Shown here piece by piece: positions 5,248 through 30,726 of a stretch of 64,000 nt of DNA; the stretch's first letter is position 1, and each line of letters opens with the position of its first letter. Source of the stretch: Ignavibacteriales bacterium (lineage in GTDB: Bacteria > Bacteroidota > Ignavibacteria > UBA10030 > UBA6906); NCBI GenBank assembly GCA_037441705.1, contig JBBIRR010000011.1:17678-81677 (forward strand), given 5' to 3'. The notes below the pieces were generated by a model. It saw only the letters and a program-made list of their open reading frames with translations. It made no database searches and was not told where the DNA came from. Position numbers and translations under genes: made by a program.

Positions 5248-8200
5248 CTATCGCGTCTCGAGGACGTCATACACATTCGGCTCATCCATTCTCGTTCTTC
5301 CACCTCCATGCCACTCGCTTGCGTTTTCTCGTACAGCCCTGAACTCACCTAAGCCCGCGCCGCCGTGATCGTCCTGCCCGCCGACGAGAACGGTGAACGT
5401 CCATTTCTCCGTTGGCGTGCCGAGATACTTCGTTGGGAGCGCGAAGCGAATAACGCCGCGTTCAGCATCGCCCAACGGATGCGAAACGTCTTCCTCCTTC
5501 GGGACGTATGCCGCAAGCACACGCCCCTCCTTGTCCTCGAGTTGAACGCCGCCGCCCACATAGATAATTCTTTCGTATGCGCGCCGAGGCGGCAGCATGA
5601 AATTTGAATTCCGTCCAACCAATCGTCTCCCGGAGTTTTCGATTCCATCTTCATCAATGGCGATGGCGATGAACGTCAACTGGAACCCATATTCGAGATG
5701 CCAGCCGGGGTTTGCTAGCGCCGCGAACTGCAGCTCGAAGTACGCCATCGAGTCGTCTGCCGAGACGGCAAACCGAGTGATGTCAAATCCCCCTTTTTTG
5801 AAATGCGGGCTGAGCGGGTACGTGAATGCTCCCGTTCCATTGTCATCGCCTTCCGGATCATCAACCGAGACAAGGCTGCGTGCCACCGGGTTGAATGCCT
5901 TGATGGCAGGATGTGGAACTAAAGCATAGTCAGGTGGACGAAGAGCTTTGAGCCCGGCACGAAGCGAAGGAGCCACGAACGCCAGCGGCGAGCGACTACT
6001 GAGGGCTGCGGCGTTGTTGATAGTTTCACTGATGAAGTTATCTCTAATTCCTTCTGATACAAGAGATAAGGCTGAATCACTTAGCGTAATGAATATGTGA
6101 GAATTAGGTCGAACCTTGAACGTGCCTGAGATTTCTTGGCTGTCATCCATCAGCAGGTGAATCTCGGCTGTCCCGCCTTTCCGCAGATTGCTGGCGTCGA
6201 TACGAACGGAGGTGGTTTCGTTCGTGCTCCCGATTTCAAACGGCAATGCTCGGCCGTTGAGGTTGATGACGGCCTTCACTGCACCGAGTGCCTTCGGTAT
6301 CCTCGGTCGGAGCACGAGGTGATGATTCAGCAAGCTGACACGAGCCCCAAGATAATCATCATAGAAATTGCGGATGAACTCAGCGAGGTTCCAAGCTTGC
6401 GAGATGGTGCCTGACAGCAACGGCTCACGCTCGTCCGCCCGCGGCAGCGCGTCGAGCAGTTCCGATTGTGTGCCGACCGCGCCTCGGTCCAGGATTTGGT
6501 GAACTGCATTTTGCGTTAGTCGGAATGCGAACTCATGCTCATTGAAATGGACCAACTCCGAAATCAGCGGACCTTGAAGCCACGTCCATACAACTCCGTT
6601 GTGGTATGCCGCGTCTTTTGGATAGTAAGGCGGATAAAGATGGTACGGATGAAAATCGTCATCCTCTTGCGAGAGCGACGCAACGCCGTACTCGTACGTG
6701 AGTTTTGAGACGACGGTTTGCACAACCTGTGCACGGAGTTCCTCGGGCAGCAGTCGTGCTGTGAAAATCTGATTGGGCCGAAGTCGGTTGTCGGGCGATC
6801 CATCTCGTCGCAGGTGGTCAACGACCTGACCGTGATGGATGAAGAAGCGGAGGAAGTTCTGTCTCAGAAGAAGGAGGTGATCACGCCACCGTTGTGCGCG
6901 GGAGCTATCCTGAAGTTGCGTTGCGAACCACACTCCGGCTTCCAGCTGCTGTGCCCATAGTGCCTGCACGTCGTTTGCCCGATTGCCGCGCGGGCTCCAC
7001 GGCCCGTCTGGTCCGACGGCGTCCATCCACGTTTCCGCGTCGCCGTGCGTGAGAAAGCCGAGGGAATCGCAATGATGGCGCAGCGTCCCTTCAATTGATC
7101 GAACGATTGTGGGATAGATGGAAGACATGAACGCGGTATCGCCGGAGCGTTCAACATACTCTCGCGCCATCATCACGAAGCGCGGCGTACCGTCTGCCGT
7201 GTTGTATGCCCGGTCGGTTGTGGTGATGATGTTGGGGATTCGCCCGTAGTCGTGCGAAGTCGAGTCGCGCTGCTGGTGCGCCGCAAAGCTCAGCAGGATT
7301 TCCTTAGCCTCGCCGAAACGTCCCAGCACAAGCGTTGCACCGGGTAGTGCAATAAACGTGTCGCGGCCCCAGTAGTTGTTGAACCACGGCAGCCCGGCGA
7401 AAATCCCCTTCATGCGTTGGTTCATCAGGAGTGCATCGAGCGAGAGTTTTGCCCACGCCAGCGCCTTGTTGAAGTCTGCATTCTCCGTCTCGACGAACGT
7501 CTCGCGCAGCAGGCGCTCCATGCGCTCGCGACGGACGCGATGATAGCGATCCTTGTGCTTGAGGTACGAGCGTGCATGCTGTACGGCTTCCTCAGGTGTA
7601 TCGCCAACGCTGAAGACGAGAACATGCGTAGTTGCCTTCCGGCCGGCGACAATGACCGGCGAGAAGTTGTTTTGCCTTTGCGTGGATTTCCTCTGTGGCA
7701 GAAAACCCGCTCCATGAATCGCCAGCCAAACGGGATACGGCTGCTGTTCTGTTTTCGAAAGATGGCTTCTACGCGCGAGAAGCACAAGCTGTTCTCGAAA
7801 CCGCGTGACGTAATCACGGGCGCCTTCGGAGAACAAGGGAATGACATCAATGTGTACAGGCTTCGGCGCAGTGACCGTAACTGAGAACAGCGCGAGGCTA
7901 TCAACGAGCCGCAATTCTTCGACAATGCCGCCCGGATACAGGCGCTTCAAGTAGTCGGGATACACGACGACCGAACGCGCAGAAGAACGGTCGAGTCTCT
8001 TTTCCTCAATCCAGATCTCATAGTCGTGAACGAACGTGTGACCGAACACGTTAAACCCTTGCCAGACCGAGCGGTTCTCTGCATGCGTTTCGCCGATGAA
8101 GAAAGCAGTTTCCTTATTCGTGAAGGCAAACTCTCGGGATACGCCCTTCACCTCGATCGCCAGCTCTTCGACAAGCGGCTGTGAGAACGATTGCGTGAGA

Positions 8201-8271
8201 AGCCTCAGAGAGAGAACTCCCACGGTCGCAAAACCGATCCGTGAGTTGCGGTGGGTATATCCGCGCCTCAT
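5248..8271 (-). CDS. Exported amylo-alpha-1,6-glucosidase (glycogen debranching family) with C-terminal glucodextranase/DOMON-like domain
   Basis: Motifs AGLPWFNNYWGRDTFIALPG, YNTADGT, ETWMDA, AYHNGVVWTW and SELLD...QAW. C-terminal DDPEGDDNGTGAFTYP...NPGW...GF is DOMON-like. Start placed at the ATGA overlap with the upstream esterase stop; N-terminus is signal-peptide-like. Confidence 0.85.
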   Translation of the reverse strand: MRRGYTHRNSRIGFATVGVLSLRLLTQSFSQPLVEELAIEVKGVSREFAFTNKETAFFIGETHAENRSVWQGFNVFGHTFVHDYEIWIEEKRLDRSSARSVVVYPDYLKRLYPGGIVEELRLVDSLALFSVTVTAPKPVHIDVIPLFSEGARDYVTRFREQLVLLARRSHLSKTEQQPYPVWLAIHGAGFLPQRKSTQRQNNFSPVIVAGRKATTHVLVFSVGDTPEEAVQHARSYLKHKDRYHRVRRERMERLLRETFVETENADFNKALAWAKLSLDALLMNQRMKGIFAGLPWFNNYWGRDTFIALPGATLVLGRFGEAKEILLSFAAHQQRDSTSHDYGRIPNIITTTDRAYNTADGTPRFVMMAREYVERSGDTAFMSSIYPTIVRSIEGTLRHHCDSLGFLTHGDAETWMDAVGPDGPWSPRGNRANDVQALWAQQLEAGVWFATQLQDSSRAQRWRDHLLLLRQNFLRFFIHHGQVVDHLRRDGSPDNRLRPNQIFTARLLPEELRAQVVQTVVSKLTYEYGVASLSQEDDDFHPYHLYPPYYPKDAAYHNGVVWTWLQGPLISELVHFNEHEFAFRLTQNAVHQILDRGAVGTQSELLDALPRADEREPLLSGTISQAWNLAEFIRNFYDDYLGARVSLLNHHLVLRPRIPKALGAVKAVINLNGRALPFEIGSTNETTSVRIDASNLRKGGTAEIHLLMDDSQEISGTFKVRPNSHIFITLSDSALSLVSEGIRDNFISETINNAAALSSRSPLAFVAPSLRAGLKALRPPDYALVPHPAIKAFNPVARSLVSVDDPEGDDNGTGAFTYPLSPHFKKGGFDITRFAVSADDSMAYFELQFAALANPGWHLEYGFQLTFIAIAIDEDGIENSGRRLVGRNSNFMLPPRRAYERIIYVGGGVQLEDKEGRVLAAYVPKEEDVSHPLGDAERGVIRFALPTKYLGTPTEKWTFTVLVGGQDDHGGAGLGEFRAVRENASEWHGGGRTRMDEPNVYDVLETR

Positions 8272-9512
8272 CGCGTACCAAAGAAGTATTCCAGGATGGA
8301 GCTGATGCGCGCTCGCCAGTTGAACCAATTGTGTCCTTCCGGATGCTCTTCGTAGTGGAGAGGATAGCCTTTCTCTTCCATCACCATTTTCATCCGATAT
8401 GCTTTCTCCTGAGCATCGTGGATCGTGCCTGTGTCGATGAAGAAGCGTACGTTCTTGCGCGGGCTATTAGCGATCAGCGCGATAAGCGAATCGTTTGCCC
8501 ACCAGTAGGCTGGAGACTGCGCCGCGCTGAGGCCGAACACATCCGGCCGGGTGAATGCCGCGTACGTTGCGATCAGTCCGCCAAGCGAGGCGCCCATAAT
8601 CCCCGTTCGGGCCGGGTCGGTGGCGGCGTTGTACCGACTGGCAATGATTGGTCGGAGTTCCTCGGCGAGGAAGCGTACGTAGGAGTCGCTCATCGTGTAA
8701 TCCATCATCCGCTTGTTAGTGCTCGGGTTGCGGGGGTCTGTTCGGGGGTCAACGAATACTGCGACGATGGGCGGGATGCGTCCATCGGCAAGCATGTTGT
8801 CCAGCACGTTCGTCATCAGCGCAAGCGAGATGTACTCGCCTCCATCGTTCACGTAGAGCGTGGCGTAGCGCGCCGAGGACGATTTTCCATAGTCGGGCGG
8901 AAGGTAGACGAAAACGGGATGCGTCCGCTGAAGGATCGTGCTGCTGATGCTGAGTGTGTCGAGTTTTCCATGAGGAACGTCTGGGCGAAACTCGACTTCC
9001 TTCGGGGGACGGTAGAGAGGCATGCAGACTTCCGAGTTAGGTCCGTAGCCGCCGATGGCCCGCCGTTGATTGATTGGATCGAGTATCCAGGCCGAATCTA
9101 CGACAAACTTGTACTCGCATCGAGCGGCAAGGGGGAGACGCTTGCTGAGGACAAACAGTTGTGTTTGGGCCACGCGTTGCATTGTGTCGGCTTCAGGATT
9201 CCAGCCGTTCAAGTCGCCTGGGACTGCTACGTGTGCAGCCGGGCCAATGTAGACGAAGTGCACCGTCGAATCCTCCACAATCACCTGCCCGTTGAAGCGC
9301 AAAGTTGCATGCAGATGTTCGACAAGTACACGCCTGCAAGTGGAGTCCGCTTCTTGAATTTCCCGCAGAATGTGAGCGAAGGGCCTTCCGAGAAAACCGC
9401 CTGCATGACGCATATCGAGCGCCTGACTTCGCGTCGTAGCGGGGATCGCCAACAGAAAGAGTGCGCTGAAAAATTGGAATGAGTGCCGGAGCGCGGCCCG
9501 AATGGGTGTCAT
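8268..9512 (-). CDS. Secreted alpha/beta-hydrolase esterase (Fes/CE1-like) with N-terminal CBM48/E-set-like domain
   Basis: Signal peptide MTPIRAALRHSFQFFSALFLLAIP. CBM48-like VPGDLNGW and YKFVVDSAWILDP. Esterase motifs VYLPPDY, NDG, nucleophile elbow GASLGG and EGHNW. Confidence 0.85.
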   Translation of the reverse strand: MTPIRAALRHSFQFFSALFLLAIPATTRSQALDMRHAGGFLGRPFAHILREIQEADSTCRRVLVEHLHATLRFNGQVIVEDSTVHFVYIGPAAHVAVPGDLNGWNPEADTMQRVAQTQLFVLSKRLPLAARCEYKFVVDSAWILDPINQRRAIGGYGPNSEVCMPLYRPPKEVEFRPDVPHGKLDTLSISSTILQRTHPVFVYLPPDYGKSSSARYATLYVNDGGEYISLALMTNVLDNMLADGRIPPIVAVFVDPRTDPRNPSTNKRMMDYTMSDSYVRFLAEELRPIIASRYNAATDPARTGIMGASLGGLIATYAAFTRPDVFGLSAAQSPAYWWANDSLIALIANSPRKNVRFFIDTGTIHDAQEKAYRMKMVMEEKGYPLHYEEHPEGHNWFNWRARISSILEYFFGTR

Positions 9513-9588
9513 CGTTTCGTAAAATGCCAACAGGTGTGCACAAACTACCTGCGATAATATACGTACCCTGCGAATGAGTTGAAACCAG

Positions 9589-9617
9589 TTGCACGTCCGC
9601 ACGGCATAAACTATATT
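9589..9617 (+). promoter_or_regulatory. Putative sigma70-type promoter of udk
   Basis: TTGCAC (9589-9594), 17 nt spacer, TATATT (9612-9617). Confidence 0.55.
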
Positions 9618-9643
9618 GGGGTAGTCAGTTTTTCTCTTCTCCT

Positions 9644-10267
9644 ATGTCATCAACGAGTATAGTTGTTGGGATAGCCGGCGGAACAAGTTCGGGAAAGACG
9701 ACGGTAACGCGTCAGATTACTGCATCGCTCGGCGAGTCGAACATCGCCCTTCTGCAGCACGACTCCTACTATAAGGACCTTTCGGCGTTTGGCGGCAAGC
9801 AGCCTCACGAAATCAACTTCGATCATCCTGATGCTTACGACACGGCGCTGCTGATCGAGCATGTGCGCAAGCTGCGCGGTGGTGAGCCGATCCAGCAGCC
9901 GGTGTACAGTTATACGACGTATCGCCGAACGAGCGAGCTGCGGTTGGTAGAACCGAAACGCATCATCATTGTGGAGGGCATTCTGGTGTTTTTCGAGAGA
10001 GAACTCCGCGACCTCATTGATGTGAAAGTTTTCGTTGACACCGATGACGATGAGCGCGTGCTTCGTCGGATTCGACGCGATGTGCTTGAGCGCGGGCGCA
10101 CAATCGAATCCGTTATTGATCAGTACATCAGTACCGTCAAGCCGATGCACTTAGAATTCGTGGAGCCGACCAAGCGCTGGGCAGATGTCATTATTCCCCG
10201 CGGCGGCGAAAACCGCGTCGCCATTGATCTCGTTGTGCGCATGCTCAAGACCCTCGATATGACGTAG
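9644..10267 (+). CDS. udk: Uridine kinase
   Basis: Motifs GIAGGTSSGKTT, HDSYYKD, NFDHPDA, IVEGIL, RDVLERGR and VKPMHLEFVEPTKRWAD. Confidence 0.95.
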   Translation: MSSTSIVVGIAGGTSSGKTTVTRQITASLGESNIALLQHDSYYKDLSAFGGKQPHEINFDHPDAYDTALLIEHVRKLRGGEPIQQPVYSYTTYRRTSELRLVEPKRIIIVEGILVFFERELRDLIDVKVFVDTDDDERVLRRIRRDVLERGRTIESVIDQYISTVKPMHLEFVEPTKRWADVIIPRGGENRVAIDLVVRMLKTLDMT

Positions 10268-10290
10268 CCCTCGGCTGCGGCGTCGAATGG

Positions 10291-10662
10291 TCATTTCATG
10301 GGAAGGGCTTCGCTGATACAGCGAAGGAGGCATCCAACCATCTCGGTCTTGCGCACGAGCTTGGTCGAAGGATGCTCAGCAATATACTGCCTGTAGGATG
10401 ATTCCTCGGAGCCGGTGAGGAAGATAAAAGGTATATCTTTCAGCACGGGATCGCGGCTGACTCGCCTGTGAAGTTCAATGCCGTTCAACGATGGCATCTC
10501 GATATCCGATACGATCAGATCAATGGGATTTTGCAGGAGGGTCGCGAGGGCTTCCTCGCCGCTGTGCGCCGCCAACACCGAGTACTCATGCAGGGCAAGC
10601 AAATCCTTGACCAGCTCCACATAGACCGGATCGTCATCTACCACAAGAATTGTTCTCTGCAT
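10291..10662 (-). CDS. Single-domain response regulator (CheY-like receiver)
   Basis: ILVVDDD, DLIVSDIEMP with intact phospho-Asp, and PFIFLTG. Confidence 0.9.
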   Translation of the reverse strand: MQRTILVVDDDPVYVELVKDLLALHEYSVLAAHSGEEALATLLQNPIDLIVSDIEMPSLNGIELHRRVSRDPVLKDIPFIFLTGSEESSYRQYIAEHPSTKLVRKTEMVGCLLRCISEALPMK

Positions 10663-10859
10663 GGCGGTGGTGATGGTTCAGAAGCTCAACGTTGTGCAGA
10701 AAATAGAAATTGTCGCTGCACGCGTCAACGAAAAAGATTTGCGAGGTCGCAAGCGATGGTGAATCGCGCAGAATTGTTTTTCACTCACTTTTCTCCTATC
10801 ATTAGCAAGTCTTTTTTGGAATGAAAACGTTTTTCATGGGAAATTACATCGGGGGCTAA

Positions 10860-11714
10860 GTGAATCTCTACCAGGCAATCGTCCTTGGTATCGTCCAGGG
10901 ATTGACAGAATTCCTTCCCATCAGCAGCTCGGCGCATCTCACCATCGCCGGCAAGCTCTTCGGACTTATCAGTCCTGCAACAACCGAGTCGTGGACAGCA
11001 TTTATCGCGGTGATTCAGTTGGGGACGCTGATTGCCGTTGTTGCCTACTTCTTCAAGGATTTGCTGCGGATGGCAGTGTCGCTCAAGAATGATTGGACGA
11101 CACACGGTGTGTTGAACGGAGTCAAGCATTACTCGCTTCACTCCCGGCTGGCGCTCTATGTCGTTCTTGGGACTTTGCCTATGGGATTAATCGGACTTGG
11201 GCTGAGCAAAGTCGTTCACAGCATGTTCACGAAGAGCACGATTGTCATTGCCTCCAGCTTGATCGGACTTGCGCTGCTGTTGTGGTTGGCAGAACGCGTG
11301 GCAAGCCACAAACGAACGCTGGATGTTCTCACGTGGTGGGACGCGCTCATTATCGGCACGGCGCAAGCATTGGCGCTCATTCCTGGATCGTCGCGCTCGG
11401 GCACGACGATTACGGCGGGACTCTTTCTGAATTTCTCACGCGAAGCTGCCGCGCGATTTTCGTTCCTCCTGAGTATTCCCGCCATAGGCGCCAGCGGCCT
11501 GTACGAATTGGCGACGGTCCAGAAGGGGATCGGCGACTTAGGAATTTTCAACGTCGTCGCAGCGACGCTCGTTTCTGCCGTGGTCGGATACGCATCCATT
11601 GCCTGGCTGCTTCGTTTTCTTCTGGTCAACACGACGCTCAGTTTTGTCGTGTACCGCATCGCGTTGGGGGTTCTGCTGTTAGTGCTGCTTTCCTCCGGCA
11701 TCATGGAATTCTGA
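10860..11714 (+). CDS. uppP: Undecaprenyl-diphosphate phosphatase (BacA)
   Basis: Motifs GIVQGLTEFLPISSSAH, QALALIPGSSRSGTTI and AARFSFLLSIP. Confidence 0.95.
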   Translation: MNLYQAIVLGIVQGLTEFLPISSSAHLTIAGKLFGLISPATTESWTAFIAVIQLGTLIAVVAYFFKDLLRMAVSLKNDWTTHGVLNGVKHYSLHSRLALYVVLGTLPMGLIGLGLSKVVHSMFTKSTIVIASSLIGLALLLWLAERVASHKRTLDVLTWWDALIIGTAQALALIPGSSRSGTTITAGLFLNFSREAAARFSFLLSIPAIGASGLYELATVQKGIGDLGIFNVVAATLVSAVVGYASIAWLLRFLLVNTTLSFVVYRIALGVLLLVLLSSGIMEF

Positions 11715-11749
11715 CGTGCTGCACGCATGAGTGTCGGAAGGGTTTGGGT

Positions 11750-12265
11750 ATGAGCACGTATTCACCCGTTCGTAAGCTTACCACTATTGCCCTCCTCGCA
11801 GCGGTCGGCATCGCGCTGTTCGTCCTCGAATCCTACATCCCCATGCCGCTGCCGTTTCTGAAAATCGGCCTGGCGAACATCTCCAGCGTCGTTGCGTTGA
11901 TGCTTCTCGGTACCACCAGTATGGTGTCGGTGGTTTTGCTGCGCGTTGTGGTGGGATCGTTGTTCATCGGAACGTTCATGAGTCCGGCTTTCTTGCTTGC
12001 CCTTTCGGCAGGTGTTGCTTCGGCCGTCGGGATGGCTGTCGTTCGCAAGATTTCGGGCAATCTGTTCAGCGTTGTCGGTCTCAGTCTTATCGGCGCGGTG
12101 TCACACAGCATCACGCAGCTTCTCATCGTTCGGTATGTGTATGTGCAAAACGCCTCGGTGCTTCATTTGCTTCCGCTGCTTCTCACCAGCTCGCTTGTCG
12201 GGGGAGTGATCGTGGGTTATCTTTCGCTGCGGCTCCTCAGCGCCCTTCCGGAGGCTGTCCGATAA
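11750..12265 (+). CDS. Gx transporter family membrane protein (EetB-like ECF S-component; often annotated heptaprenyl diphosphate synthase component I)
   Basis: Motifs LESYIPMPLPFLKIGLANI, LLRVVVGSLFIG, SAG and GLSLIGAVSHSITQL; about 5-6 TM segments. Start refined to ATG 11750 inside the longer listed ORF. Confidence 0.85.
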   Translation: MSTYSPVRKLTTIALLAAVGIALFVLESYIPMPLPFLKIGLANISSVVALMLLGTTSMVSVVLLRVVVGSLFIGTFMSPAFLLALSAGVASAVGMAVVRKISGNLFSVVGLSLIGAVSHSITQLLIVRYVYVQNASVLHLLPLLLTSSLVGGVIVGYLSLRLLSALPEAVR

Positions 12266-12636
12266 TGAAACGCTTGACGATGGGTGACGCCGCGCTTCTC
12301 GTTGTGCTTACCGCGTGTACGGTGGGGAGCTTTTTTGCGCGGGATCTGTTCGCTTCCCACGGCTTTACCGTCCTGGTCGAGCTGCGTAACATCACGGTGT
12401 ACAAGGGCAACCTCAGCGAAGAACGCAAAGTCACCGTCCACGCCGCGTACGGCGACGTGCGTATTCAGATTCATGAGGGGAAGGTGGCCGTCGTCCATGC
12501 CGAATGTCCCAACAAAGTCTGCGTGCGTACCGGCTGGCGCGGACTTGCAGGTGAGTCGATCATCTGCGTGCCGAACCGACTCGTGATTAGAATCTTAGGA
12601 GACGGGGCCACTCCGGTCCGAGGGATTACGGGATGA
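12265..12636 (+). CDS. NusG domain II-containing membrane-anchored protein (EetA-like)
   Basis: GD followed by an N-terminal TM; signature CPNKVCVRTGW...GESIICVPNRLVI. TAATG coupling to the upstream gene. Confidence 0.85.
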   Translation: MKRLTMGDAALLVVLTACTVGSFFARDLFASHGFTVLVELRNITVYKGNLSEERKVTVHAAYGDVRIQIHEGKVAVVHAECPNKVCVRTGWRGLAGESIICVPNRLVIRILGDGATPVRGITG

Positions 12637-13655
12637 GGCGACTGGTTCTTGCGGGCATGCTGTTAGCATTGATCGTCCCTTCGTGCAAGAAAAGTGGACT
12701 GCAGCGCATTGCCCGCGAAACCACCGTGATGGATACGTATCTTTCGGTCACTCTCTACGACGCACAGCTCAGCATTGCCGATGGCAACGCCATCATCGAC
12801 TCGGTGTTTGCAGAAGTGAGCCGCGTCGAACAGCTCATGACGGACTATGCCGACACGAGTGAGGTGGGAAAGATCAACGTGTACGCAGGCAGAGACAGTG
12901 TCGCTGTTTCTCCGGAGCTTATCTACGTGCTCAAGGAGGCCCACGAGTTCGCCGAGCAATCGCGGGGAGCCTTCGATGTGACCATTGGGCCGATCGTCCG
13001 GGCGTGGGATTTCCTCGCTCCGGTGCATGAGATTCCGACGAGGGGCCGGCTGCGCTTCCTTCGCCGCTTTGTGAATTTCCGCAACGTGGTCATCGATAGC
13101 CCGAAGGTCTACTTGCGTCAGCGCGGCATGCGTCTGGACTTAGGCGGGATCGCAAAGGGCTACGCTGTCGATCGGTCGGTGGAGATTCTGAAACGGCGCG
13201 GCGTCAAACACGCCATCGTTGATCTCGGCGGCAATCTTGGGGTGTGGTGGGAGGGAACCCATGCGCTCGATTCCGCTGTTGCCGAGATTTTGATCCGCCA
13301 TCCGCGCAAGGAGGGAAAGTTTTTCGGATCGTTTTCTGCCGGCACATCCGGTATATCTACCTCGGGCGACTACCAGCGCTACTTCATCAAGGACGGCGTG
13401 CGCTATCATCACATCATCAATCCCGCAACGGGAACTCCGGCCAACGATGTCGTAAGCGTGACGATCATCGCTCAGGATGCGACAACCGCCGACGCTCTTT
13501 CGACGCTCGTGTTTGTGTTGGGGAGAGAGGAAGGAATGGCCTTTATCAAAAACTCGCCCGGAGTGGAAGGTGTGATTGTTTGGGAGGAAGGTGATTCGCT
13601 CCGATACATCCTCTCTCCCGGTCTGGAAGGGAAATTCGTTCGCTCTAATGATTAG
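12633..13655 (+). CDS. apbE: FAD:protein FMN transferase lipoprotein (ApbE/Ftp/FmnB)
   Basis: Lipobox IVPSC. Motifs MDT, GAFDVTIGP, LDLGGIAKGYAVD, STSGDYQRY, HHIINPATG and ADALST. Confidence 0.95.
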   Translation: MRRLVLAGMLLALIVPSCKKSGLQRIARETTVMDTYLSVTLYDAQLSIADGNAIIDSVFAEVSRVEQLMTDYADTSEVGKINVYAGRDSVAVSPELIYVLKEAHEFAEQSRGAFDVTIGPIVRAWDFLAPVHEIPTRGRLRFLRRFVNFRNVVIDSPKVYLRQRGMRLDLGGIAKGYAVDRSVEILKRRGVKHAIVDLGGNLGVWWEGTHALDSAVAEILIRHPRKEGKFFGSFSAGTSGISTSGDYQRYFIKDGVRYHHIINPATGTPANDVVSVTIIAQDATTADALSTLVFVLGREEGMAFIKNSPGVEGVIVWEEGDSLRYILSPGLEGKFVRSND

Positions 13656-14385
13656 CGTAGATTCGCTTTCGTACCGCTATCCCGGTGCCGATCGGGATGC
13701 CCTTCGGGCCATCTGCTTACAGTTCGCGGAGGGAAGCTTCACAGCCATCATGGGCGCAAACGGATCAGGCAAGAGCACATTGGCTCGATGCCTCAACGGC
13801 CTCCTGCGTCCAACATCGGGCTGCGTACTGGTGGATGGCCGCAATACGGCTGAAGCATCCTCGCTGCCCGCAATCCGCCGGGACGTTGGGCTTGTCTTTC
13901 AAGACCCTAACACACAGATGACATCCCCGACGATCGAACGAGAGCTTGCCTTCGCGCTGCAGAACATTGGCGTGCCTGCGGCGGAGATGCACCAACGCGT
14001 GGAGGAAGAACTCCGCCGGTTGGGACTCACGAGCCGCAGAGGCGATGCTCCTTCCACACTCTCGGGCGGTGAGAAGCAGCGACTTGCCCTCGCTTCGGTA
14101 ATGATGCTGCGCGCGAAATACCTCGTGCTCGACGAGCCGACGACGTTTCTCTCTCCCTCTTCACGACTGCGGCTGATGGAGGATTTGTCTCGCCTGCATC
14201 GTGAGCAGCACGTGGCGATTATTCTCATCACCCAACATCTTCGCGAAGCAAATCACGCGGAGCGCATCGTGGTCCTGGAAAACGGCACCGTTGCCTTCGA
14301 TGATTCGCCTCAAGTGCTTGCCGGACGACGGAATGCGTTGCGCTCGTGGGGGATTGTGATCCCCCGAGAACTTGAGGTGCAATGA
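13648..14385 (+). CDS. ecfA1: ECF transporter ATPase A1
   Basis: Walker A GANGSGKST, VFQDP, signature LSGGEKQR and Walker B LDEP. The H-switch position reads ITQ. Confidence 0.85.
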   Translation: MISVDSLSYRYPGADRDALRAICLQFAEGSFTAIMGANGSGKSTLARCLNGLLRPTSGCVLVDGRNTAEASSLPAIRRDVGLVFQDPNTQMTSPTIERELAFALQNIGVPAAEMHQRVEEELRRLGLTSRRGDAPSTLSGGEKQRLALASVMMLRAKYLVLDEPTTFLSPSSRLRLMEDLSRLHREQHVAIILITQHLREANHAERIVVLENGTVAFDDSPQVLAGRRNALRSWGIVIPRELEVQ

Positions 14386-24287: not shown

Positions 24288-25571
24288 TCAGAAGTCGAAC
24301 TTGATTCCCACCGTGCCGTACACGTAGTTCCGATGTTCCCAGGCGCGCGGTTTGCGGAAGACCACTGCGGAGAACTTGATCTCGCCGTAGAGAAATGGCG
24401 GAACAATTTCCGCCCAGCCGATGAACATGAGCAGGCGGCTGTATTGTGCCGTCACGCGGAAGCGATCGAAGCGATAGTTGCGATACTCGATGCGTATGAA
24501 CGGGTCAATGAATGATTCGGGTTCGCCGGCTTTGAAGATGGAATACTTGCCGCCGACTGCCACCGCTTTCCCGAGGTTCACTTTGTGATAGCTTGCCCCG
24601 AGATGAACGTTCAAGTTCTGTCGCTTCTCGTCGAAGAGGAAGTCGAACGCGTAGTATCCTTGCACGATGGCAGAAATGTAGTAGAGGCTATCGAGGTTGC
24701 TCGTGTAGTACTCATCGCGTCGACCCGAAAGGCCGCCGAAGGCAAAGCGTCCGCCAAGTGCAGCGTACGGAAACGATTCCGATGCGATGCGGATGGTTTC
24801 CCACTCGAATTCAAATTCACCCACAATCCCGTCGCTGCCGTTGAGCAATCGGGTTGTGCTGGTAAGGACCTGCGGCTGTCCGGGCTCGGCTCGATCAATG
24901 CCGCCGTTGATGGGAACCCACGCGCCGAGTTTGATGGACTTGTACATGCCCATGAGCCACGTATTGCCCGTCGCCCAGAAGGGATAGCCCAGTTCATCTT
25001 CACCGATACGACCCACCACACCCCAGTCGTTGCCGAAGCGCAGCGACGCACCGAACAGAGAGATGTCGGCCGAGACCCAATCCGGCTTCGTGGGATGTGC
25101 CATCGGGTTCGATTCCTCGGAGACGCGGCTTTTCAGACCGAACGGCGGTTCGTTGCGCCGCGCTTCTTCCATCAGGTCGGTTTTCAAGTCGCGTGCAAGC
25201 AGCGTCTGTGCGTACAGCTTGCCGTACGAGACGTTGCCGATGCGGATGTCGGTGATCGTTTGCGAATCGGGATTGGCAATGATGATGATCTTGTCGTCTT
25301 TGGAGAATTGCTTGCCGCGGTTTCGGAACGCAGCGTAGACGCGCAATTTCAAATTCGGCTCGTTCATCTCCCAGCGCGGGAAAGACGGCGCATACGCACT
25401 GTCCACGAGATTCAGTTCGGCGAGGATGCGCTCGAGAGATTGCAGGTCGGCACGTGCCGCTTCCACTTTTGCAACGAGCGAGTCATAGCTGGACTGTCCA
25501 CGGACCGGCAGCGTGCCTGCGAGACCGAGCGCAAGAAGGGGGAGAAGGCGGAGAAGGGCGAATCGTTTCAT
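24288..25571 (-). CDS. Hypothetical exported protein, predicted outer-membrane beta-barrel (paralog B)
   Basis: Signal peptide MKRFALLRLLPLLALGLAG, N-terminal coiled coil, amphipathic strands, and C-terminal YGTVGIKFDF ending in Phe. Shares motifs with 25587..26996. Confidence 0.75.
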   Translation of the reverse strand: MKRFALLRLLPLLALGLAGTLPVRGQSSYDSLVAKVEAARADLQSLERILAELNLVDSAYAPSFPRWEMNEPNLKLRVYAAFRNRGKQFSKDDKIIIIANPDSQTITDIRIGNVSYGKLYAQTLLARDLKTDLMEEARRNEPPFGLKSRVSEESNPMAHPTKPDWVSADISLFGASLRFGNDWGVVGRIGEDELGYPFWATGNTWLMGMYKSIKLGAWVPINGGIDRAEPGQPQVLTSTTRLLNGSDGIVGEFEFEWETIRIASESFPYAALGGRFAFGGLSGRRDEYYTSNLDSLYYISAIVQGYYAFDFLFDEKRQNLNVHLGASYHKVNLGKAVAVGGKYSIFKAGEPESFIDPFIRIEYRNYRFDRFRVTAQYSRLLMFIGWAEIVPPFLYGEIKFSAVVFRKPRAWEHRNYVYGTVGIKFDF

Positions 25572-25586
25572 GAGTGCGTCCACGTT

Positions 25587-26996
25587 CTACAAGCTGAAGG
25601 TATAAGGAATTGCCACCGTGAAGAAGTACGGCGGCTCCCACGCATGACGCGAGCGCGTGATAAGGGTGGAGAACTTTGCCTCGACGCGCAGCTGCTGCGG
25701 GATGATCTCCATCCACAGGCTTCCCAATGCCCAATCACGGAAATACTGAAGACTTGCACCGAACCTCCGCGCAAATTGCTGGTTCATGTACTCCGCCTTC
25801 CCGTACGGACTCCAGAAGAACCGGTTCTCGAACGGTGCCAGTTCCACCGTCCGACCGCCGCTGCGGAGTTGTTCGTCAATCCCGATATACTCCCCGCCCA
25901 GCCCAACCTTCATGCGCAAGAGGTTTGCGGTGTTGTTGATGTTGACGGTGAACGAATACCACACCGTGCCTGCGCCTTTGATCGTGTAGACGAACGCCGT
26001 GTCGGGAAACGTACCATCGTGATCCGAACGCGGAAAGCCGATCAACAACGAACCGCCGGCGAACGCCCAGTCGAACTCTGCCGTGACGCCGTAGGTGCCG
26101 GAAAGCTGGCGCGGCTTCCAGATAGAGCTGAGCGACCCGCTGCTGGCCGTGCCCCATTTGAACGGGATGTGCCCGCCGATTTTCAGTTGATTGTACAGCA
26201 CAAAGAAATTCAAGTTGCCGGAGGTCCAGAACGGGTGTGCGATTTCCTCGTCGCCGATGCGAGCTTCGATGCCCCACATATCTCCGAACCGTATGCGAAT
26301 GTCGTCGAAGAGGCGCAGGGTGACGATCGTTTCGGTCTTGTAGTCGGGGTTGCCAAAACTATACCGATCGAACGCGTGAAGAACACTGTCGGCCTCCTTG
26401 ACCAGTTTCGGCGCACTGAGGTCGGCGATGCGGAACTTCCGATCGATCAGCTCTTTGTCTTCGCTGTACTCGCGACTCTCGAGGATCTGGCGATACATCC
26501 CGCGCTCGGGCTTCTTATCGAGTGCCTCGCGCAGACGCTGCCCTTTGCGCTCTTTGCTATTGCCGGAAAAGTAGATAGCAACAAGGTCGGTGGAAGGCTC
26601 CGGTGTGGCGATCACCTGAATGTCGCCGCGACTTTCCAGAAAGCTCGAATCGTTGTCCGACACCTCGAAGAAGTACTGAGAGATCGTGTCGTTCAATGCG
26701 TCCGAAAGGGGGATGACCCACGAACGAAGCCGCGTGAAGTAGTAGGATTGCGGACCGAATGTGACTTTGTCCAACACGCTCTGCAGCCGTTCGGTACGCT
26801 GCCGCAGCGCCCGTAAGGTGTCCATGAGCGCAGTCAGAGAATCCTGCTGTCCCATCTGAATGTGTTGCGTGGGACCGGGCTCAGCAACCGACGAACCAGA
26901 CGCCCCCGGAGGTTGATTCGGTGCAGCAAACGCCGCGCAAGTTGCCACAAGAAGATACAGCGGTATCGAGAAGAAGGAACTCGTCCGGGTATGCAT
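25587..26996 (-). CDS. Hypothetical exported protein, predicted outer-membrane beta-barrel (paralog A)
   Basis: Signal peptide ending AAFA, coiled coil DSLTALMDTLRALRQRTERL, block RFGDMWGIEARIGDEEIAHPFWTSGN, and an aromatic-rich beta-strand C-terminus. Confidence 0.75.
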   Translation of the reverse strand: MHTRTSSFFSIPLYLLVATCAAFAAPNQPPGASGSSVAEPGPTQHIQMGQQDSLTALMDTLRALRQRTERLQSVLDKVTFGPQSYYFTRLRSWVIPLSDALNDTISQYFFEVSDNDSSFLESRGDIQVIATPEPSTDLVAIYFSGNSKERKGQRLREALDKKPERGMYRQILESREYSEDKELIDRKFRIADLSAPKLVKEADSVLHAFDRYSFGNPDYKTETIVTLRLFDDIRIRFGDMWGIEARIGDEEIAHPFWTSGNLNFFVLYNQLKIGGHIPFKWGTASSGSLSSIWKPRQLSGTYGVTAEFDWAFAGGSLLIGFPRSDHDGTFPDTAFVYTIKGAGTVWYSFTVNINNTANLLRMKVGLGGEYIGIDEQLRSGGRTVELAPFENRFFWSPYGKAEYMNQQFARRFGASLQYFRDWALGSLWMEIIPQQLRVEAKFSTLITRSRHAWEPPYFFTVAIPYTFSL

Positions 26997-27010
26997 GATG
27001 GCAGTGGCTC

Positions 27011-28351
27011 TCAGTAAAGGATTGATTGCGTGATCTGGTCGGTACGTGAGCCGCCGATTCCTGTCACCGTGATTTTGATCTTGATTGCAGCGGGGCGAGT
27101 TGCAAGAAGATTCTGAACAATAAGCGTAAAGGCCTTCCCTCTGCGCGTATCCAATCGCGAAATAATTCCTTCGGGCTGGATGACCGACGCACTTTCAACG
27201 GTCACGTCGTTGTTGCCCACATCGGAGCTGGTGAACTTGAACTGGTACTCGCTCCCGTTCCATGTGGAGCCTGCAAGTTTGATCTGCGGCGGAACAGGCT
27301 TCTTGACCGGAATTTCTTTCCGCAGCATCTCCGTCTGAATCGTCGAGAGAGCACGGAACGTCAAGCTCGTCCACGTCCGCTCGGGTTTGAACACGAAGGG
27401 AAACTCGACCGCAGAGACGGTTTTGACGGGGATGGAGCCGTTGGCGAGAATCTCGATGGTGAACTTGTTCGCGTCAAGCCCGCGGATGCCGCTGGCGTAG
27501 GTGAACGGGACGTCCCAGTAGGCTTCGGCCTGAGGTTCCGGATCCCATCGCGGCGGTGCGACGGATAGGGTGAATGTTGCTGAGGCATTTTCCAGATGTG
27601 CCTCGGCGCCGCGATTGGCGTGCGCGTTCACCGTAACGGCAATGGGTGTGCTCGTCACCATCGGGTTTGCCCATTCCAATCGTATCCTGCCGACATCTTT
27701 CACAATCGTGAAGCGAGGATCGGAACACGAGAACGAGACGATATCCGGCGTTGGCCCGCCGACGTAGATATTCTTGACGTAGGGCGACCCGACGATCCAC
27801 CTATCATCGCGCGGCGGTTCGACGTTGAGCGTTAACTGCGGAGGCGGCGCGCCGGCTCCCTCGACTTTGAGCGTGAATTGGACGGGCTTGGTGGTCAGCG
27901 GGATTTCATCGCCTAACTGTCGCATGATCAGTTCGCGCACCGACTCCGGTAGATCACGAGGAAGCCCGCGGTTGACATCGGCCACGACACGCAGCCGGTA
28001 CAAACCCTTCTCCACCATCTTGCCCGAGAGAATGCCATTGCCTTCGTCATCCTTTACGATCTCGGGCGTGAGTCCATCGGGGAACGCGCCGTCCACGGGT
28101 TTGAGGTCGTACTTGATGCTTTGTTTCTCCGCGTCGGTTTCCAGCCCGCGGACGCGTATCAACGCGCGGCTGCTGTCTTTGGTAAACCAGATCAGTGTGT
28201 CGGGGACCTGCAGCTCAGGCGCTTCGGAAATCTTCTTGACAAGAATCTCTGCGATCTCGCGCTGTGCGTCGTCGCGTTCGGTGATAACGTCCAGCAAACT
28301 CACCAGCGCGACCAGATAGAGAACGAAATAGAATGACGTCTTCTGCTTCAT
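27011..28351 (-). CDS. GldM/PorM-like bitopic inner-membrane protein with beta-rich periplasmic domains
   Basis: N-terminus KQKTSFYFVLYLVALVSLL resembles GldM RQKMINLMYLV. Single TM followed by about 400 aa of Pro-linked beta-rich modules. Directly follows a GldL-like gene. Confidence 0.6.
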   Translation of the reverse strand: MKQKTSFYFVLYLVALVSLLDVITERDDAQREIAEILVKKISEAPELQVPDTLIWFTKDSSRALIRVRGLETDAEKQSIKYDLKPVDGAFPDGLTPEIVKDDEGNGILSGKMVEKGLYRLRVVADVNRGLPRDLPESVRELIMRQLGDEIPLTTKPVQFTLKVEGAGAPPPQLTLNVEPPRDDRWIVGSPYVKNIYVGGPTPDIVSFSCSDPRFTIVKDVGRIRLEWANPMVTSTPIAVTVNAHANRGAEAHLENASATFTLSVAPPRWDPEPQAEAYWDVPFTYASGIRGLDANKFTIEILANGSIPVKTVSAVEFPFVFKPERTWTSLTFRALSTIQTEMLRKEIPVKKPVPPQIKLAGSTWNGSEYQFKFTSSDVGNNDVTVESASVIQPEGIISRLDTRRGKAFTLIVQNLLATRPAAIKIKITVTGIGGSRTDQITQSILY

Positions 28352-28390
28352 CGGACTGTTCCCCTGGGTACAGTGATCTTCACGGCCGGC

Positions 28391-29161
28391 TTACGCGTTC
28401 GAAGTGCGGTTTTCCTGGAGGGACTTGTGAACTTCCTGCCGTACCATGGAGGCGAAGACTTCCTGGACTTTCAACTGCACAACCCGTTCGATTTCATTCT
28501 CCACGACCTTGCCGATGTGCGATTCGATGCGCTGCAGCACGCGGAGCGCCTCTGCCTCTGCATCGATCAATTCGCTTCGCAGCGTGTTGTACATCTGATG
28601 CTGGTCGGCGAGGAGATCGTTGGTCTTTGCAATGTGGGCCTCGGTTCGCTGCAGCGTTCGCAGCGCTTCGCTTTCGGCGTTAATCATCTCATTGCGCAGC
28701 ACGTTGTACATTTCGCGCTGGCTGGTGAGGAGCTCGTTGCGCAGCACGTTGATCAGCTCGCGCTGCGTGCCGGCAACATCATTTTTCAAGATGCGAATCA
28801 TCTCGTTCTCGCCGGTGACGATGTCGCGCTTGAGGAGTTGGAGAATCTCTTTTTCGCCGGAGAGAATCTGGCTGTCGGTGGAAGGAGCTGCGCCCCCTTT
28901 CTCTTCAGGCGTGAGGTAATACACCGCCGCAATCATCAGAAGGAGAGCCGCCTCCAGCGCCAACGCCCCAATCACAACCCAGGAAGGTATCTGTCGCCCG
29001 TAAATAGACCGAAGACCGATGATCACAACGAGGGCAGAAGCTCCGCCGTATGCCAGGCCCTGAACTTTGTTTGTATAGCGGACGATGCCGCTCTGCCCAT
29101 TGGTGGCATAGGAAATCGGTGGTGCAGTCTGGCCCCCGACGACAACTCGTTGCGTCTCCAT
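28391..29161 (-). CDS. GldL/PorL-like two-TM inner-membrane protein with cytoplasmic repeat coiled coil
   Basis: TM1 LAYGGASALVVIIG (cf. GldL YGMGAAVVIVG). TM2 ALALEAALLL with intramembrane E70 (cf. GLLTEALIF), then TPEE (cf. FEP). Long helical tail. Confidence 0.65.
   Translation of the reverse strand: METQRVVVGGQTAPPISYATNGQSGIVRYTNKVQGLAYGGASALVVIIGLRSIYGRQIPSWVVIGALALEAALLLMIAAVYYLTPEEKGGAAPSTDSQILSGEKEILQLLKRDIVTGENEMIRILKNDVAGTQRELINVLRNELLTSQREMYNVLRNEMINAESEALRTLQRTEAHIAKTNDLLADQHQMYNTLRSELIDAEAEALRVLQRIESHIGKVVENEIERVVQLKVQEVFASMVRQEVHKSLQENRTSNA
28508..28858 (-). repeat. Intragenic 15-residue repeats plus a 39-residue duplication in the GldL-like tail
   Basis: GEKEILQLLKRDIVT / GENEMIRILKNDVAG / TQRELINVLRNELLT / SQREMYNVLRNEMIN; residues 144-179 recur at 183-218. 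Confidence 0.8.
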
Positions 29162-29234
29162 GTGAGGTCCCCTCGTGTGTTGCTGTTGTAGACGTAAAAA
29201 ATTTCCGATACTGCCAGCACAAAAAACTCAGAGG

Positions 29235-29262
29235 AATATAGCAAAATCCCCCAATTTATCAA
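29235..29262 (-). promoter_or_regulatory. Putative promoter of the gldL-like operon
   Basis: Minus strand TTGATA, 16 nt spacer, TATATT with an extended -10 TG, in the AT-rich gap after hslU. Confidence 0.45.
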
Positions 29263-29328
29263 ATGCAATTGCTTCCTACTTTGCGCGCTGTATTGCCGAA
29301 CACTGGTTCGGGCCGCGAGCGACTATCG

Positions 29329-30726
29329 CTAAAGGATGTAACGACTTAAGTCTCTATTCTTGGCGATGTTGGAGAGCTTGCTTTGCACCATTTCGCGATT
29401 CACGACGATCTTCTTTTCCTGAATCTCATCCGGTGCGTTGAACAGGATGTCGTCTAGCAGTGACGTCATGATGGTATGCAAGCGTCGGGCACCGATGTTC
29501 TCGACGTTCTCGTTTACCTCGCTGGCGATTTTAGCGATCTCCTTGATTCCGTCGTCGGTGAATTCCACCTCCACGCCTTCGGTGGCGATCAGGGCTGCGT
29601 ACTGTTTGATCAGGGCGTTCTGCGGCATGGTAAGAATCTTGACGAAGTCTTCCTCTGTTAGACTGTTCAACTCGACGCGGATGGGAAAGCGCCCTTGCAA
29701 TTCGGGAATCAGGTCGGATGGCTTGGAGACGTGAAAGGCACCCGATGCGATGAAGAGGATGTGATCCGTCCGAACCATCCCGTACTTGGTCATGACGTTC
29801 GAACCTTCGACAATGGGCAGAAGGTCGCGCTGGACACCTTCCCGCGACACGTCGGGACCCACGGTGGATTTGCTGCCCGCAATCTTGTCGATCTCGTCAA
29901 GGAAGACGATGCCGGAGTTCTCGACGCGTTGCAGCGCTTCTTTGATTGCAGCATCGTGATCAATGAGTTTCTTTGCTTCCTCGTTGGTGAGGATGACGCG
30001 CGCCTCGGCGATCGTCACTTTCCGTTTCTTCAGTTTCTTCGGCATGAGGCCGCCGAACATCTCCTGAAGGTTCACGCCGATCTCTTCAAGATTCATCGGG
30101 CCGATCACCTGCATCAGCGGCATGTCGCTGGCGGGGATATCAATCTCGACGACGCGGTCCTCGAGCTTTCCCTCGCGCAGCTTCTGGCGGAGTTTCTCGC
30201 GCGTCGCGTGCGCATCTTCTCGTTCATCCGCGGTTGCATTTTCCTCCGCTTCATGACCGACTCGTTTGCGCGTCGAAGGGAAAAGGATATCGAGAAGCCG
30301 CTCTTCACACAGGTCGCGAGCCTTGTCGTACACTTCAGCGCGTTTTTCCTCCTTCACCATGTTCACGGCGTACTCGGTCAGATCCCGGATAATGGATTCG
30401 ACGTCACGGCCGACGTAGCCGACCTCCGTGAATTTCGAGGCCTCGACCTTGATGAACGGCGCGTCGGCGAGTTTTGCAAGCCGACGCGCTATCTCCGTTT
30501 TCCCTACACCCGTCGGGCCGATCATGATGATGTTGTTCGGCATGATCTCTTCGCGCAGCGCTGCCGGGACCTGCAATCGCCGCCACCGATTCCGGAGGGC
30601 GATGGCAACGGACTTCTTGGCATTCTGCTGCCCGATGATGTACTTATCCAGCTCGCGAACGATCTGATGCGGGGTTAGCTCACGCGAGCGATCGGTGGGT
30701 GTGACTTTGGAGTGTTGATTCTTCAT
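29329..30726 (-). CDS. hslU: ATP-dependent protease ATPase subunit
   Basis: Motifs [47 protein letters not shown] and NIGARRL. Confidence 0.97.

What the first reader, a model, noticed from the sequence alone, without database searches (positions are those of the whole stretch)
24288..29161. Candidate new envelope machine: GldLM-like proton motor plus two paralogous outer-membrane proteins, without GldK/GldN
Seen: four tightly spaced co-oriented genes with their own putative promoter. Gene 1 has two TMs with YGGAS and an intramembrane Glu (ALALEAALL, then TPEE) plus a long cytoplasmic helix. Gene 2 has one TM with basic residues and LYLV, then a long periplasmic beta-rich arm. Genes 3 and 4 are exported paralogs with barrel-like C-halves. 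Established: the T9SS/gliding motor is GldL5-GldM2, with an essential TM2 Glu in GldL and Arg/Tyr (RQKMINLMYLV) in GldM, and is normally encoded as gldKLMN where GldK is an FGE-sulfatase-fold lipoprotein. No GldK- or GldN-like gene flanks this operon, although a PorV/PorQ gene lies about 18 kb away. Inference: this is either the unrecognised energising module of a divergent T9SS in Ignavibacteria-like bacteria, with integral OM proteins replacing the GldKN ring, or a new PMF-driven trans-envelope system.
Basis: partly seen in the sequence, partly recalled or inferred. Interest (0 to 1): 0.88.

Follow-up and report, generated by a model that had tools for sequence, protein, structure and literature searches.

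The report
GldLM-like envelope motor operon, unnamed
Four adjacent genes of an Ignavibacteria-type bacterium encode two inner-membrane proteins built like the proton motor of type IX secretion plus two outer-membrane barrels. They belong to no named family and probably form a separate, optional envelope-spanning machine rather than the missing secretion motor.

Summary
Four tightly spaced minus-strand genes (24288-29161) encode:
- g1: a 2-TM hairpin protein with an invariant membrane Glu and a coiled-coil tail.
- g2: a bitopic protein with four Ig-like periplasmic domains.
- g3 and g4: two paralogous outer-membrane barrels.

None matches any Pfam, NCBIfam or PDB entry.

Similarity to GldL is weak, but it is reciprocal and in register:
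- hhalign P is 2e-4 to 6e-4.
- 1 of 200 column shuffles reaches the real score.
- Canonical GldLs take 7 of the top 25 ranks among 20,699 sequences.

For GldM only the periplasmic part aligns (84% probability). The TM motif is not significant.

The genome has SprA, PorX, PorU, PorV, PorQ and about 140 CTD cargos, but no canonical GldK/L/M/N. However:
- In 121 genomes of the class, SprA is in 121 and PorX in 120, while the g1 hairpin is in only 60.
- Module-negative genomes still carry 32-150 CTD cargos.
- A second paralogous copy lies elsewhere in this genome.

So the module is accessory. It is probably a distant GldLM-type motor driving its own barrel pair, not the core T9SS motor.

The scan has met this family before on other DNA (e.g. 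e1-3556940). My literature searches found no description of it.

The parts
29235..29262 (-). sigma-70-like promoter candidate (TTGATA-16-TATATT with TG), about 74 nt upstream of the g1 start
   Evidence: This is a consensus match only. The region has no excess of such sites over shuffles. A TGGCAG word lies nearby, but it has no TTGC -12 element.
28391..29161 (-). g1: 256-aa inner-membrane protein. TM hairpin (about 36-82) with invariant Glu70, invariant R51 in the loop and a P85-E86 exit motif, followed by a roughly 170-aa coiled-coil tail. GldL-like.
   Evidence: conservation; weak similarity to the GldL hairpin; no curated family or PDB match
27011..28351 (-). g2: 446-aa bitopic protein. 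N-terminal TM helix (conserved S-F-Y-F..Y, then E-R-D at the periplasmic exit) and four Ig-like beta-sandwich domains. GldM-like arm.
   Evidence: AF2 pLDDT 85; hhalign 84% to GldM 233-487; only generic Ig folds
25587..26996 (-). g3: 469-aa exported protein with a periplasmic N-half and an outer-membrane barrel C-half. Paralogue of g4.
   Evidence: 27% identity to g4 over 253 aa; aligns with the g4 family; matched by the h6 model built from the g4-family alignment
24288..25583 (-). g4: 431-aa exported protein. Signal peptide, alpha/beta N-domain (about 31-160), beta-barrel 170-431 ending in ...KFDF.
   Evidence: AF2 pLDDT 77; generic porin/OmpG matches, TM-score 0.2-0.4; Atlas lead: DUF3078-type barrels

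Best explanation
The four genes encode an optional, lineage-restricted machine that spans the cell envelope.

g1 and g2 form an inner-membrane unit of the GldL/GldM type. g1 oligomers surround the g2 TM helix. Protonation and deprotonation of the buried Glu70 of g1 converts ion flow into movement of g2. The four Ig-like domains of g2 reach across the periplasm.

The tip of g2 engages the periplasmic N-domains of the two outer-membrane barrels g3 and g4, which are the output device. In relatives a fifth, peptidoglycan-binding OmpA_C protein joins the set.

What is shown:
- gene structure
- conservation of the Glu and of the operon
- predicted folds
- weak similarity to GldL and GldM
- phyletic pattern

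What is inferred:
- ion-driven motion
- stoichiometry
- g2-g3/g4 contact
- the process that is powered

The module is present in only about half of a class in which the T9SS translocon is universal, and it occurs in one to three paralogous copies. I therefore read it as a motor for its own barrel-based outer-membrane process, not as the core T9SS motor.
For: Architecture and invariant residues:
-.
- The TM Glu is invariant in 25 close and 109 remote homologues.

g1 hairpin versus canonical GldL hairpin:
- hhalign probability is 28-47% and P is 2e-4 to 6e-4. E70 sits on GldL E49 and YGGA on YGxGA.
- 1 of 200 column shuffles reaches the real score; the reversed control scores 9.9 against 24.6.
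- A GldL-hairpin HMM ranks g1 18th of 20,679 ORFs.
- The g1-hairpin HMM ranks canonical GldLs 4, 5, 11, 12, 18, 22 and 25 of 20,699 sequences.

g2 versus GldM:
- hhalign probability 84%, E 7.6e-6, over g2 172-417 against GldM 233-487.
- GldM ranks are 6 and 20; the best GldN control rank is 753.

Gene order and synteny:
- The order L-like then M-like matches gldL-gldM.
- Of 20 loci fetched around hairpin hits, 13 have an adjacent g2-like gene and 8 have two barrel genes after it. These 8 come from at least five families of the class.
- A VWA+OmpA_C or TSP3+OmpA_C gene follows in several loci.

Distribution:
- The hairpin occurs in 12 of 37 same-class genomes of the phylum sample and in 0 of 114 genomes of other classes.
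- Canonical GldL shows the reverse pattern: 0 of 37 same-class genomes, with all 37 matches over cut-off lying in other classes.
- Hairpin 60 of 121 and g2-like 51 of 121, with the same family-by-family pattern, against SprA 121 of 121 and PorX 120 of 121.
- A paralogous second operon lies in the same genome.
Against: - No curated GldL or GldM model matches g1 or g2.
- With a broader, messier alignment the GldL similarity drops to P 0.015 and probability 3%.
- The g2 TM motif is not above chance: 28 of 200 shuffles reach it.
- g2 lacks the helical first periplasmic domain. Its Ig-like domains match only generic Ig folds.
- The barrels match only generic porins.
- No expression data and no interaction data exist.
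- A buried conserved Glu and a hairpin-plus-bitopic pair could serve purposes other than ion-driven motion.
Confidence: 0.5

Rival explanations
1. [quoted passage not shown] The barrels g3/g4 would replace the GldK/GldN ring.
For: - The genome has SprA, PorX, PorU, PorV, PorQ and 142 CTD matches, but no canonical GldL, GldM or GldN. GldK-type hits are sub-threshold FGE-sulfatase hits only.
- At class level the hairpin and canonical GldL are mutually exclusive.
- PorX is reported to bind PorL. I saw only the title of PMC5005315 in a search listing.
- In two other genomes a hairpin-family gene directly precedes a PorU-like C25 protein, one of which carries a T9SS CTD.
Against: - SprA is in 121 of 121 and PorX in 120 of 121 class genomes, but the hairpin is in only 60 of 121 and the g2-like gene in 51 of 121.
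- It is missing from G036, which is of the same family and 100% complete.
- Five negative genomes gave nothing with a broader profile at E up to 0.1.
- Four negative genomes carry 78, 32, 136 and 150 CTD matches.
- Paralogous copies exist within one genome.
- The operon is not next to any T9SS gene; PorQ is 18 kb away.
- CTD genes are so numerous that adjacency to one is weak evidence.
Confidence: 0.15
2. It is a TonB/Tol-like energiser. The g1-g2 pair gates or powers transport (uptake or export) through the g3/g4 barrels, or maintains outer-membrane integrity together with the OmpA_C protein.
For: - Two integral barrels with periplasmic N-domains follow the pair in 8 of 20 loci.
- A peptidoglycan-binding OmpA_C protein follows, as Pal does in Tol-Pal.
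- An earlier scan note reports a TonB-C gene in front of the module in another phylum (e1-1236865, not checked here).
Against: - No similarity to ExbB/ExbD/TolQ/TolR/TonB was returned by Pfam or NCBIfam.
- The barrels carry no TonB-dependent-receptor plug or other known signature.
- The OmpA_C gene is absent from this window's operon.
Confidence: 0.15
3. It is not a motor. It is a static trans-envelope tether or scaffold, or a signalling pair, in which the conserved Glu serves helix packing or ion binding.
For: - All homology to a known motor is in the twilight zone.
- The Ig-like arm and the barrels are generic folds.
Against: - An invariant acidic residue in mid-membrane across more than 100 divergent homologues is costly. 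It is typical of ion-coupled stators.
- GldL hairpins are the best non-self matches of the g1 hairpin profile among 20,699 sequences.
Confidence: 0.2

Closest known systems
GldL/GldM (PorL/PorM), the proton-driven motor of type IX secretion and gliding in Bacteroidota
   Same: - Gene order: hairpin protein, then bitopic protein.
- A 2-TM hairpin with G/A-rich TM1, a basic residue after TM1, a Glu in mid TM2, a Pro-Glu/acidic exit and a helical cytoplasmic tail.
- A partner with one N-terminal TM and Ig-like periplasmic domains.
- Weak reciprocal profile similarity.
   Different: - No curated model matches.
- There is no gldK or gldN; two integral barrels follow instead.
- g2 has no helical first periplasmic domain, and its TM lacks the invariant R-Q..M-I..M-Y-L-V pattern of GldM.
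- The module is accessory and multi-copy, and is not co-distributed with SprA.
Tol-Pal and TonB-ExbBD systems (5:2 stator units that energise outer-membrane processes)
   Same: The logic is the same: an inner-membrane ion-coupled unit, a periplasm-spanning arm and outer-membrane partners. In relatives an OmpA_C peptidoglycan-binding protein is also present.
   Different: - No sequence match.
- The acidic residue sits in the hairpin subunit, as in GldL, and not in the bitopic subunit. That ExbD/TolR carry it in the bitopic subunit is recalled, not tested here.
- The barrels have no TonB-dependent-receptor features.
The same unnamed family as seen earlier in this scan (e1-3556940, e1-4916333, e1-917831 and others)
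   Same: A four- or five-gene module of a GldL-like gene, a GldM-like gene and two barrels in Ignavibacteria/Kapabacteria-type genomes. The earlier follow-ups reached the same reading.
   Different: This copy is on other DNA. Here the phyletic comparison with SprA, PorX and CTD cargo, and the rank and shuffle controls, were added.

Membership tests
GldL/PorL | Match to the curated family model (NCBIfam TIGR03513; Pfam GldL N-terminal model) | tested here: not met
   - g1 has no such hit at E up to 1.
- The own genome has no TIGR03513 match at E up to 10.
- My own HMM of 20 canonical GldLs finds nothing.
- The model does work: 37 of 151 phylum genomes score over the cut-off.
GldL/PorL | Two-TM hairpin with a conserved Glu in TM2 and a cytoplasmic helical tail | tested here: met
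   E70 is invariant in 25 and in 109 sequences. It aligns with invariant E49 of the canonical alignment.
GldL/PorL | Detectable homology by profile-profile comparison | tested here: inconclusive
   - hhalign probability 28%, 47% for the hairpin alone and 3% with the broad alignment.
- 1 of 200 shuffles reaches the real score.
- Rank enrichment: 7 of 20 GldLs fall in the top 25 of 20,699 sequences.
GldL/PorL-GldM/PorM complex | 5:2 ring-around-helices assembly | not testable with these tools
GldM/PorM | Match to the curated model (TIGR03517) and the invariant N-terminal R-Q-x-M-I-x-x-M-Y-x-V TM motif | tested here: not met
   - No hit.
- TM against TM, 28 of 200 shuffles reach the real hhalign score.
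- The GldM N-terminal HMM does not list g2 among its hits.
GldM/PorM | Periplasmic part: a helical D1 followed by Ig-like D2-D4 | tested here: inconclusive
   - hhalign probability 84%, E 7.6e-6, to GldM 233-487.
- The AF2 model has four beta-sandwich domains but no helical D1.
- Fold searches list only generic Ig folds.
T9SS core module (gldKLMN/porKLMN) | Encoded with GldK (an FGE-fold lipoprotein) and GldN | tested here: not met
   - There is no GldN match in the genome, but the control rang nowhere, so this is weak.
- The GldK model gives only sub-threshold FGE-sulfatase hits on other contigs: 110 and 73.5 bits against a cut-off of 350.
- The neighbours of the operon are hslU and a PQQ dehydrogenase.
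T9SS core module (gldKLMN/porKLMN) | Co-distribution with the SprA translocon | tested here: not met
   SprA 121 of 121, PorX 120 of 121, hairpin 60 of 121, g2-like 51 of 121. Negative genomes keep 32-150 CTD matches.

The most novel reading that the evidence does not exclude
g1-g4 define a new branch of ion-driven envelope motors: a very old sister of GldLM that drives a dedicated heteromeric outer-membrane barrel pair. In this class the hairpin family has diversified into several motor-output combinations, including barrel pairs, 720-770-aa arms and PorU-like neighbours. One of these could be the still-unknown power unit of the Ignavibacteria T9SS.
Probability: 0.4. Interest if true: 0.85.

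Novelty: new variant of a known kind. Interest (0 to 1): 0.62.

Why it matters
Only a handful of ion-driven stator families are known that carry energy from the inner to the outer membrane: MotAB, ExbBD, TolQR, GldLM and a few others. This list is recalled, not tested here.

A conserved, unannotated relative with its own barrel partners would add a new output type. It would also give a handle on how GldLM arose.

The work exposes a class-wide puzzle as well. All 121 sampled genomes of this class have SprA and 120 have PorX. The genomes counted here carry tens to about 150 CTD cargos. Yet none of the 37 same-class genomes searched for canonical GldL has it. The motor of their T9SS is therefore unknown, and this module covers only half of them.

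Tried and rejected
- Complex prediction of g1 (residues 22-105, 4 copies) with g2 (residues 1-48, 2 copies): no answer, score 0.09 against a mark of 0.32, controls not run. This is not evidence either way.
- RNA runs: no RNA holder was listed for 24288-29330.
- PDB sequence searches with g1, g2 and the g1 profile returned only coiled-coil noise.
- Foldseek and VIA-align on the g2 model returned only generic tandem Ig folds. GldM/PorM was not among the rows shown.
- Foldseek on g4 returned generic porins and OmpG with TM-scores of 0.2-0.4.
- The Atlas search for g4 gave DUF3078-type barrel clusters at 0.92-0.93 with low recognition. This is a lead only.
- Family scans of 109 remote hairpin homologues: no GldL model appears among the 25 families shown of 32 in either NCBIfam or Pfam. 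Seven families per library were not displayed.
- A GldK-like operon elsewhere: the best FGE-sulfatase gene, on C52, has unrelated neighbours.
- PorX as a discriminator: it is universal in the class, so it says nothing about the module.
- Literature: five full-text searches found no paper on a T9SS motor or a GldLM-like module in Ignavibacteria.
- timed out. It was rerun with ORFs of at least 80 aa.
Full report
THE OBJECT

Four minus-strand ORFs lie at the coordinates given:

| gene | coordinates | length |
|---|---|---|
| g1 | 28391-29161 | 256 aa |
| g2 | 27011-28351 | 446 aa |
| g3 | 25587-26996 | 469 aa |
| g4 | 24288-25583 | 431 aa |

- They are separated by 39, 14 and 3 nt.
- Upstream, after 167 nt, lie hslU, hslV and rpoN. 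Downstream, after 114 nt, lies a PQQ-dependent dehydrogenase-like gene.
- A sigma-70-like site (TTGATA-16-TATATT, 10 of 12) lies at 29262-29235. Such sites are no commoner here than in shuffles, so it is only a candidate promoter.
- None of the four proteins matches any Pfam or NCBIfam model at E up to 1, beyond sub-threshold noise.
- None has a PDB relative by sequence.

ANATOMY

g1:
- It has a TM hairpin. In 25 family members G39, G40, A41, L44, G49, L50, R51, E70, A71, P85 and E86 are invariant.
- A profile search of 1.84 billion representatives found 118 proteins at E up to 1e-3. Most share only the hairpin.
- In an alignment of 109 of them the Glu, one Gly and one Leu stay invariant.
- The rest of g1 is a coiled coil with an internal repeat that shorter orthologues lack.

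g2:
- Conserved positions at the N-terminal TM are S6, F7, Y8, F9 and Y12, followed by E25-R26-D27.
- AlphaFold2 (pLDDT 85) gives a helix at 4-41 and four beta-sandwich domains.

g3 and g4:
- They are paralogues: 27% identity over 253 residues, E 1e-21.
- The g4 model (pLDDT 77) has a signal peptide, an alpha/beta N-domain and a barrel at 170-431.
- Fold searches returned only generic Ig tandems for g2 and generic porins for g4.

IS IT GldL/GldM?

I fetched gldL-gldM-gldN from 20 genomes of other classes of the phylum and aligned them.

g1 against GldL:
- hhalign gives probability 28% and P 6e-4. YGGA lies on YGxGA and E70 on the invariant E49.
- With the hairpins alone the probability is 47% and P 2e-4. 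One of 200 column shuffles reaches the real score, and the reversed control scores 9.9 against 24.6.
- With the broad 109-sequence alignment the register is the same, but P is only 0.015.
- Rank tests agree in both directions. A GldL-hairpin HMM ranks g1 18th of 20,679 ORFs of this genome. The g1-hairpin HMM ranks canonical GldLs 4, 5, 11, 12, 18, 22 and 25 of 20,699 sequences. These are the best non-self matches apart from a few decoys.
- The 20 GldLs are kin, so this is not 20 independent events.

g2 against GldM:
- hhalign aligns g2 172-417 with GldM 233-487: probability 84%, E 7.6e-6, 11% identity.
- GldMs rank 6 and 20, and then from 127 down. The best GldN control rank is 753.
- The TM motif (LYLV against MYLV) is not above chance: 28 of 200 shuffles reach it.
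- The helical first periplasmic domain is missing.

Conclusion: g1 is probably a very distant GldL relative. g2 is GldM-like in build with only weak kinship. Neither is a member of the curated families.

THE GENOME AND THE CLASS

The genome is 100% complete in 92 contigs.

Present:
- SprA (880.6 bits).
- PorX next to SprA (711.6 bits).
- PorU (966.8 bits).
- PorV (256.4 bits).
- PorQ in the window.
- 142 CTD matches.

Absent:
- Canonical GldL, GldM and GldN.
- A true GldK: only sub-threshold FGE-sulfatase hits were found.

Presence across sampled genomes:

| sample | feature | present |
|---|---|---|
| phylum sample, 151 genomes | canonical GldL over cut-off | 37 |
| phylum sample, 37 same-class genomes | canonical GldL over cut-off | 0 |
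| phylum sample, 37 same-class genomes | g1 hairpin | 12 |
| phylum sample, 114 genomes of other classes | g1 hairpin | 0 |
| class sample, 121 genomes | SprA | 121 |
| class sample, 121 genomes | PorX | 120 |
| class sample, 121 genomes | g1 hairpin | 60 |
| class sample, 121 genomes | g2-like | 51 |

- The hairpin and g2-like genes show the same family-by-family pattern.
- Whole families lack both, as does G036, which is of the same family as this genome.
- Five negative genomes gave nothing with the broader profile at E up to 0.1.
- Four negative genomes carry 78, 32, 136 and 150 CTD matches.

The module is therefore accessory, while the T9SS outer-membrane machinery and PorX are universal in the class.

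CO-CONSERVATION AND PARALOGY

- Of 20 loci fetched around hairpin hits, 13 have a g2-like gene directly after the hairpin gene.
- Eight of the 20 then have two barrel genes. These eight come from at least five families.
- One locus has two tandem L-M pairs.
- A VWA+OmpA_C gene follows the barrels in three distant loci.
- This genome has a second, paralogous operon on contig C2. It holds:
  - a 121-aa hairpin protein;
  - a 193-aa g2-like N-part;
  - a separate 375-aa secreted protein;
  - two barrels;
  - a TSP3+OmpA_C protein;
  - a split FGE-sulfatase gene, which is intact in a genome of the same genus.
- In two other genomes a hairpin-family gene directly precedes a PorU-like C25 protein of 1793 or 1862 aa. 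These score 224 and 193 bits, below the cut-off of 450, and one carries a T9SS CTD. This is a weak link to T9SS, since CTD genes are very common.

READING

Best-supported (about 0.5): a distant GldLM-type, ion-driven inner-membrane unit whose arm works on its own pair of outer-membrane barrels. It is optional and multi-copy in this class.

Other readings:
- The T9SS-motor reading is kept at about 0.15 because of the phyletic mismatch.
- A TonB/Tol-like transport or integrity role is about 0.15.
- A non-motor scaffold is about 0.2.

LITERATURE

- Five full-text searches found no description of this module or of an Ignavibacteria T9SS motor.
- PMC3534657 (passage read) mentions Por sorting domains only in a legend on carbohydrate-active enzymes of Melioribacter. 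PMC4814513 (passages read) does the same for the chitin-degrading hydrolases of a Fibrobacteres isolate.
- PMC11205867 (passages read) restates the GldL5-GldM2 motor.
- Supplementary files were not consulted.

EARLIER SCAN NOTES

The same family was reported before on other DNA, with the same GldLM-like reading: e1-3556940, e1-4916333, e1-917831, e1-917833, e1-891979, e1-725365, e1-977125, e1-3631018 and e1-1236865. These are not independent evidence.

Noticed in passing
window 47099-48046 (-): A PorQ gene (NF033711, 256 bits, cut-off 220) lies about 18 kb from the operon. The rest of the T9SS set (PorX-SprA, PorV-PorU) is on contig C19.
   Followed up: yes
L009 (G000 C2:52000-71000), 9026-13983 (-): A second, paralogous module lies in the same genome. 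It holds a 121-aa hairpin protein with LYLEAGLL, a 193-aa g2-like N-part, a separate 375-aa secreted protein, two barrels of 506 and 454 aa, and then a TSP3+OmpA_C protein.
   Followed up: yes
L009 5861-6992 (+): An FGE-sulfatase-domain gene next to the paralogous module is split into two overlapping ORFs of 205 and 209 aa. The orthologue in a genome of the same genus is intact at 415 aa. This is either a frameshift or an assembly error.
   Followed up: partly
class-wide (121 sampled genomes): SprA is in 121 of 121 and PorX in 120 of 121 sampled genomes. No canonical GldL was found in any of the 37 same-class genomes searched. The motor of the T9SS of this whole class is unidentified.
   Followed up: partly
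L053 2301-9224 (+) and L061 1429-8619 (+): In two other genomes of the class a hairpin-family gene of about 506 aa directly precedes a PorU-like C25 protein of 1793 or 1862 aa. Both score below the cut-off, and one has a T9SS CTD.
   Followed up: partly
L042 8816-10270, L043 5419-6750, L045 5627-6958: A VWA + OmpA_C protein is encoded right after the two barrels in three distant loci, as a likely fifth component. It is absent from this window's operon.
   Followed up: partly
window 28391-29161 (-), g1 residues about 150-215: The g1 coiled coil contains an internal repeat of about 31 residues (...MYNVLRNEM.. and ..MYNTLRSEL..). The 207-217-aa orthologues lack one copy.
   Followed up: no
window 24585-26816 (+): A 743-aa open frame runs antisense across g3 and g4. 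Given the conserved genes on the minus strand, it is a spurious frame.
   Followed up: no
L046 (G193 C19:42000-58000) 7937-13065 (-): Two L-like/M-like pairs lie in tandem ahead of one barrel pair in another family of the class.
   Followed up: partly
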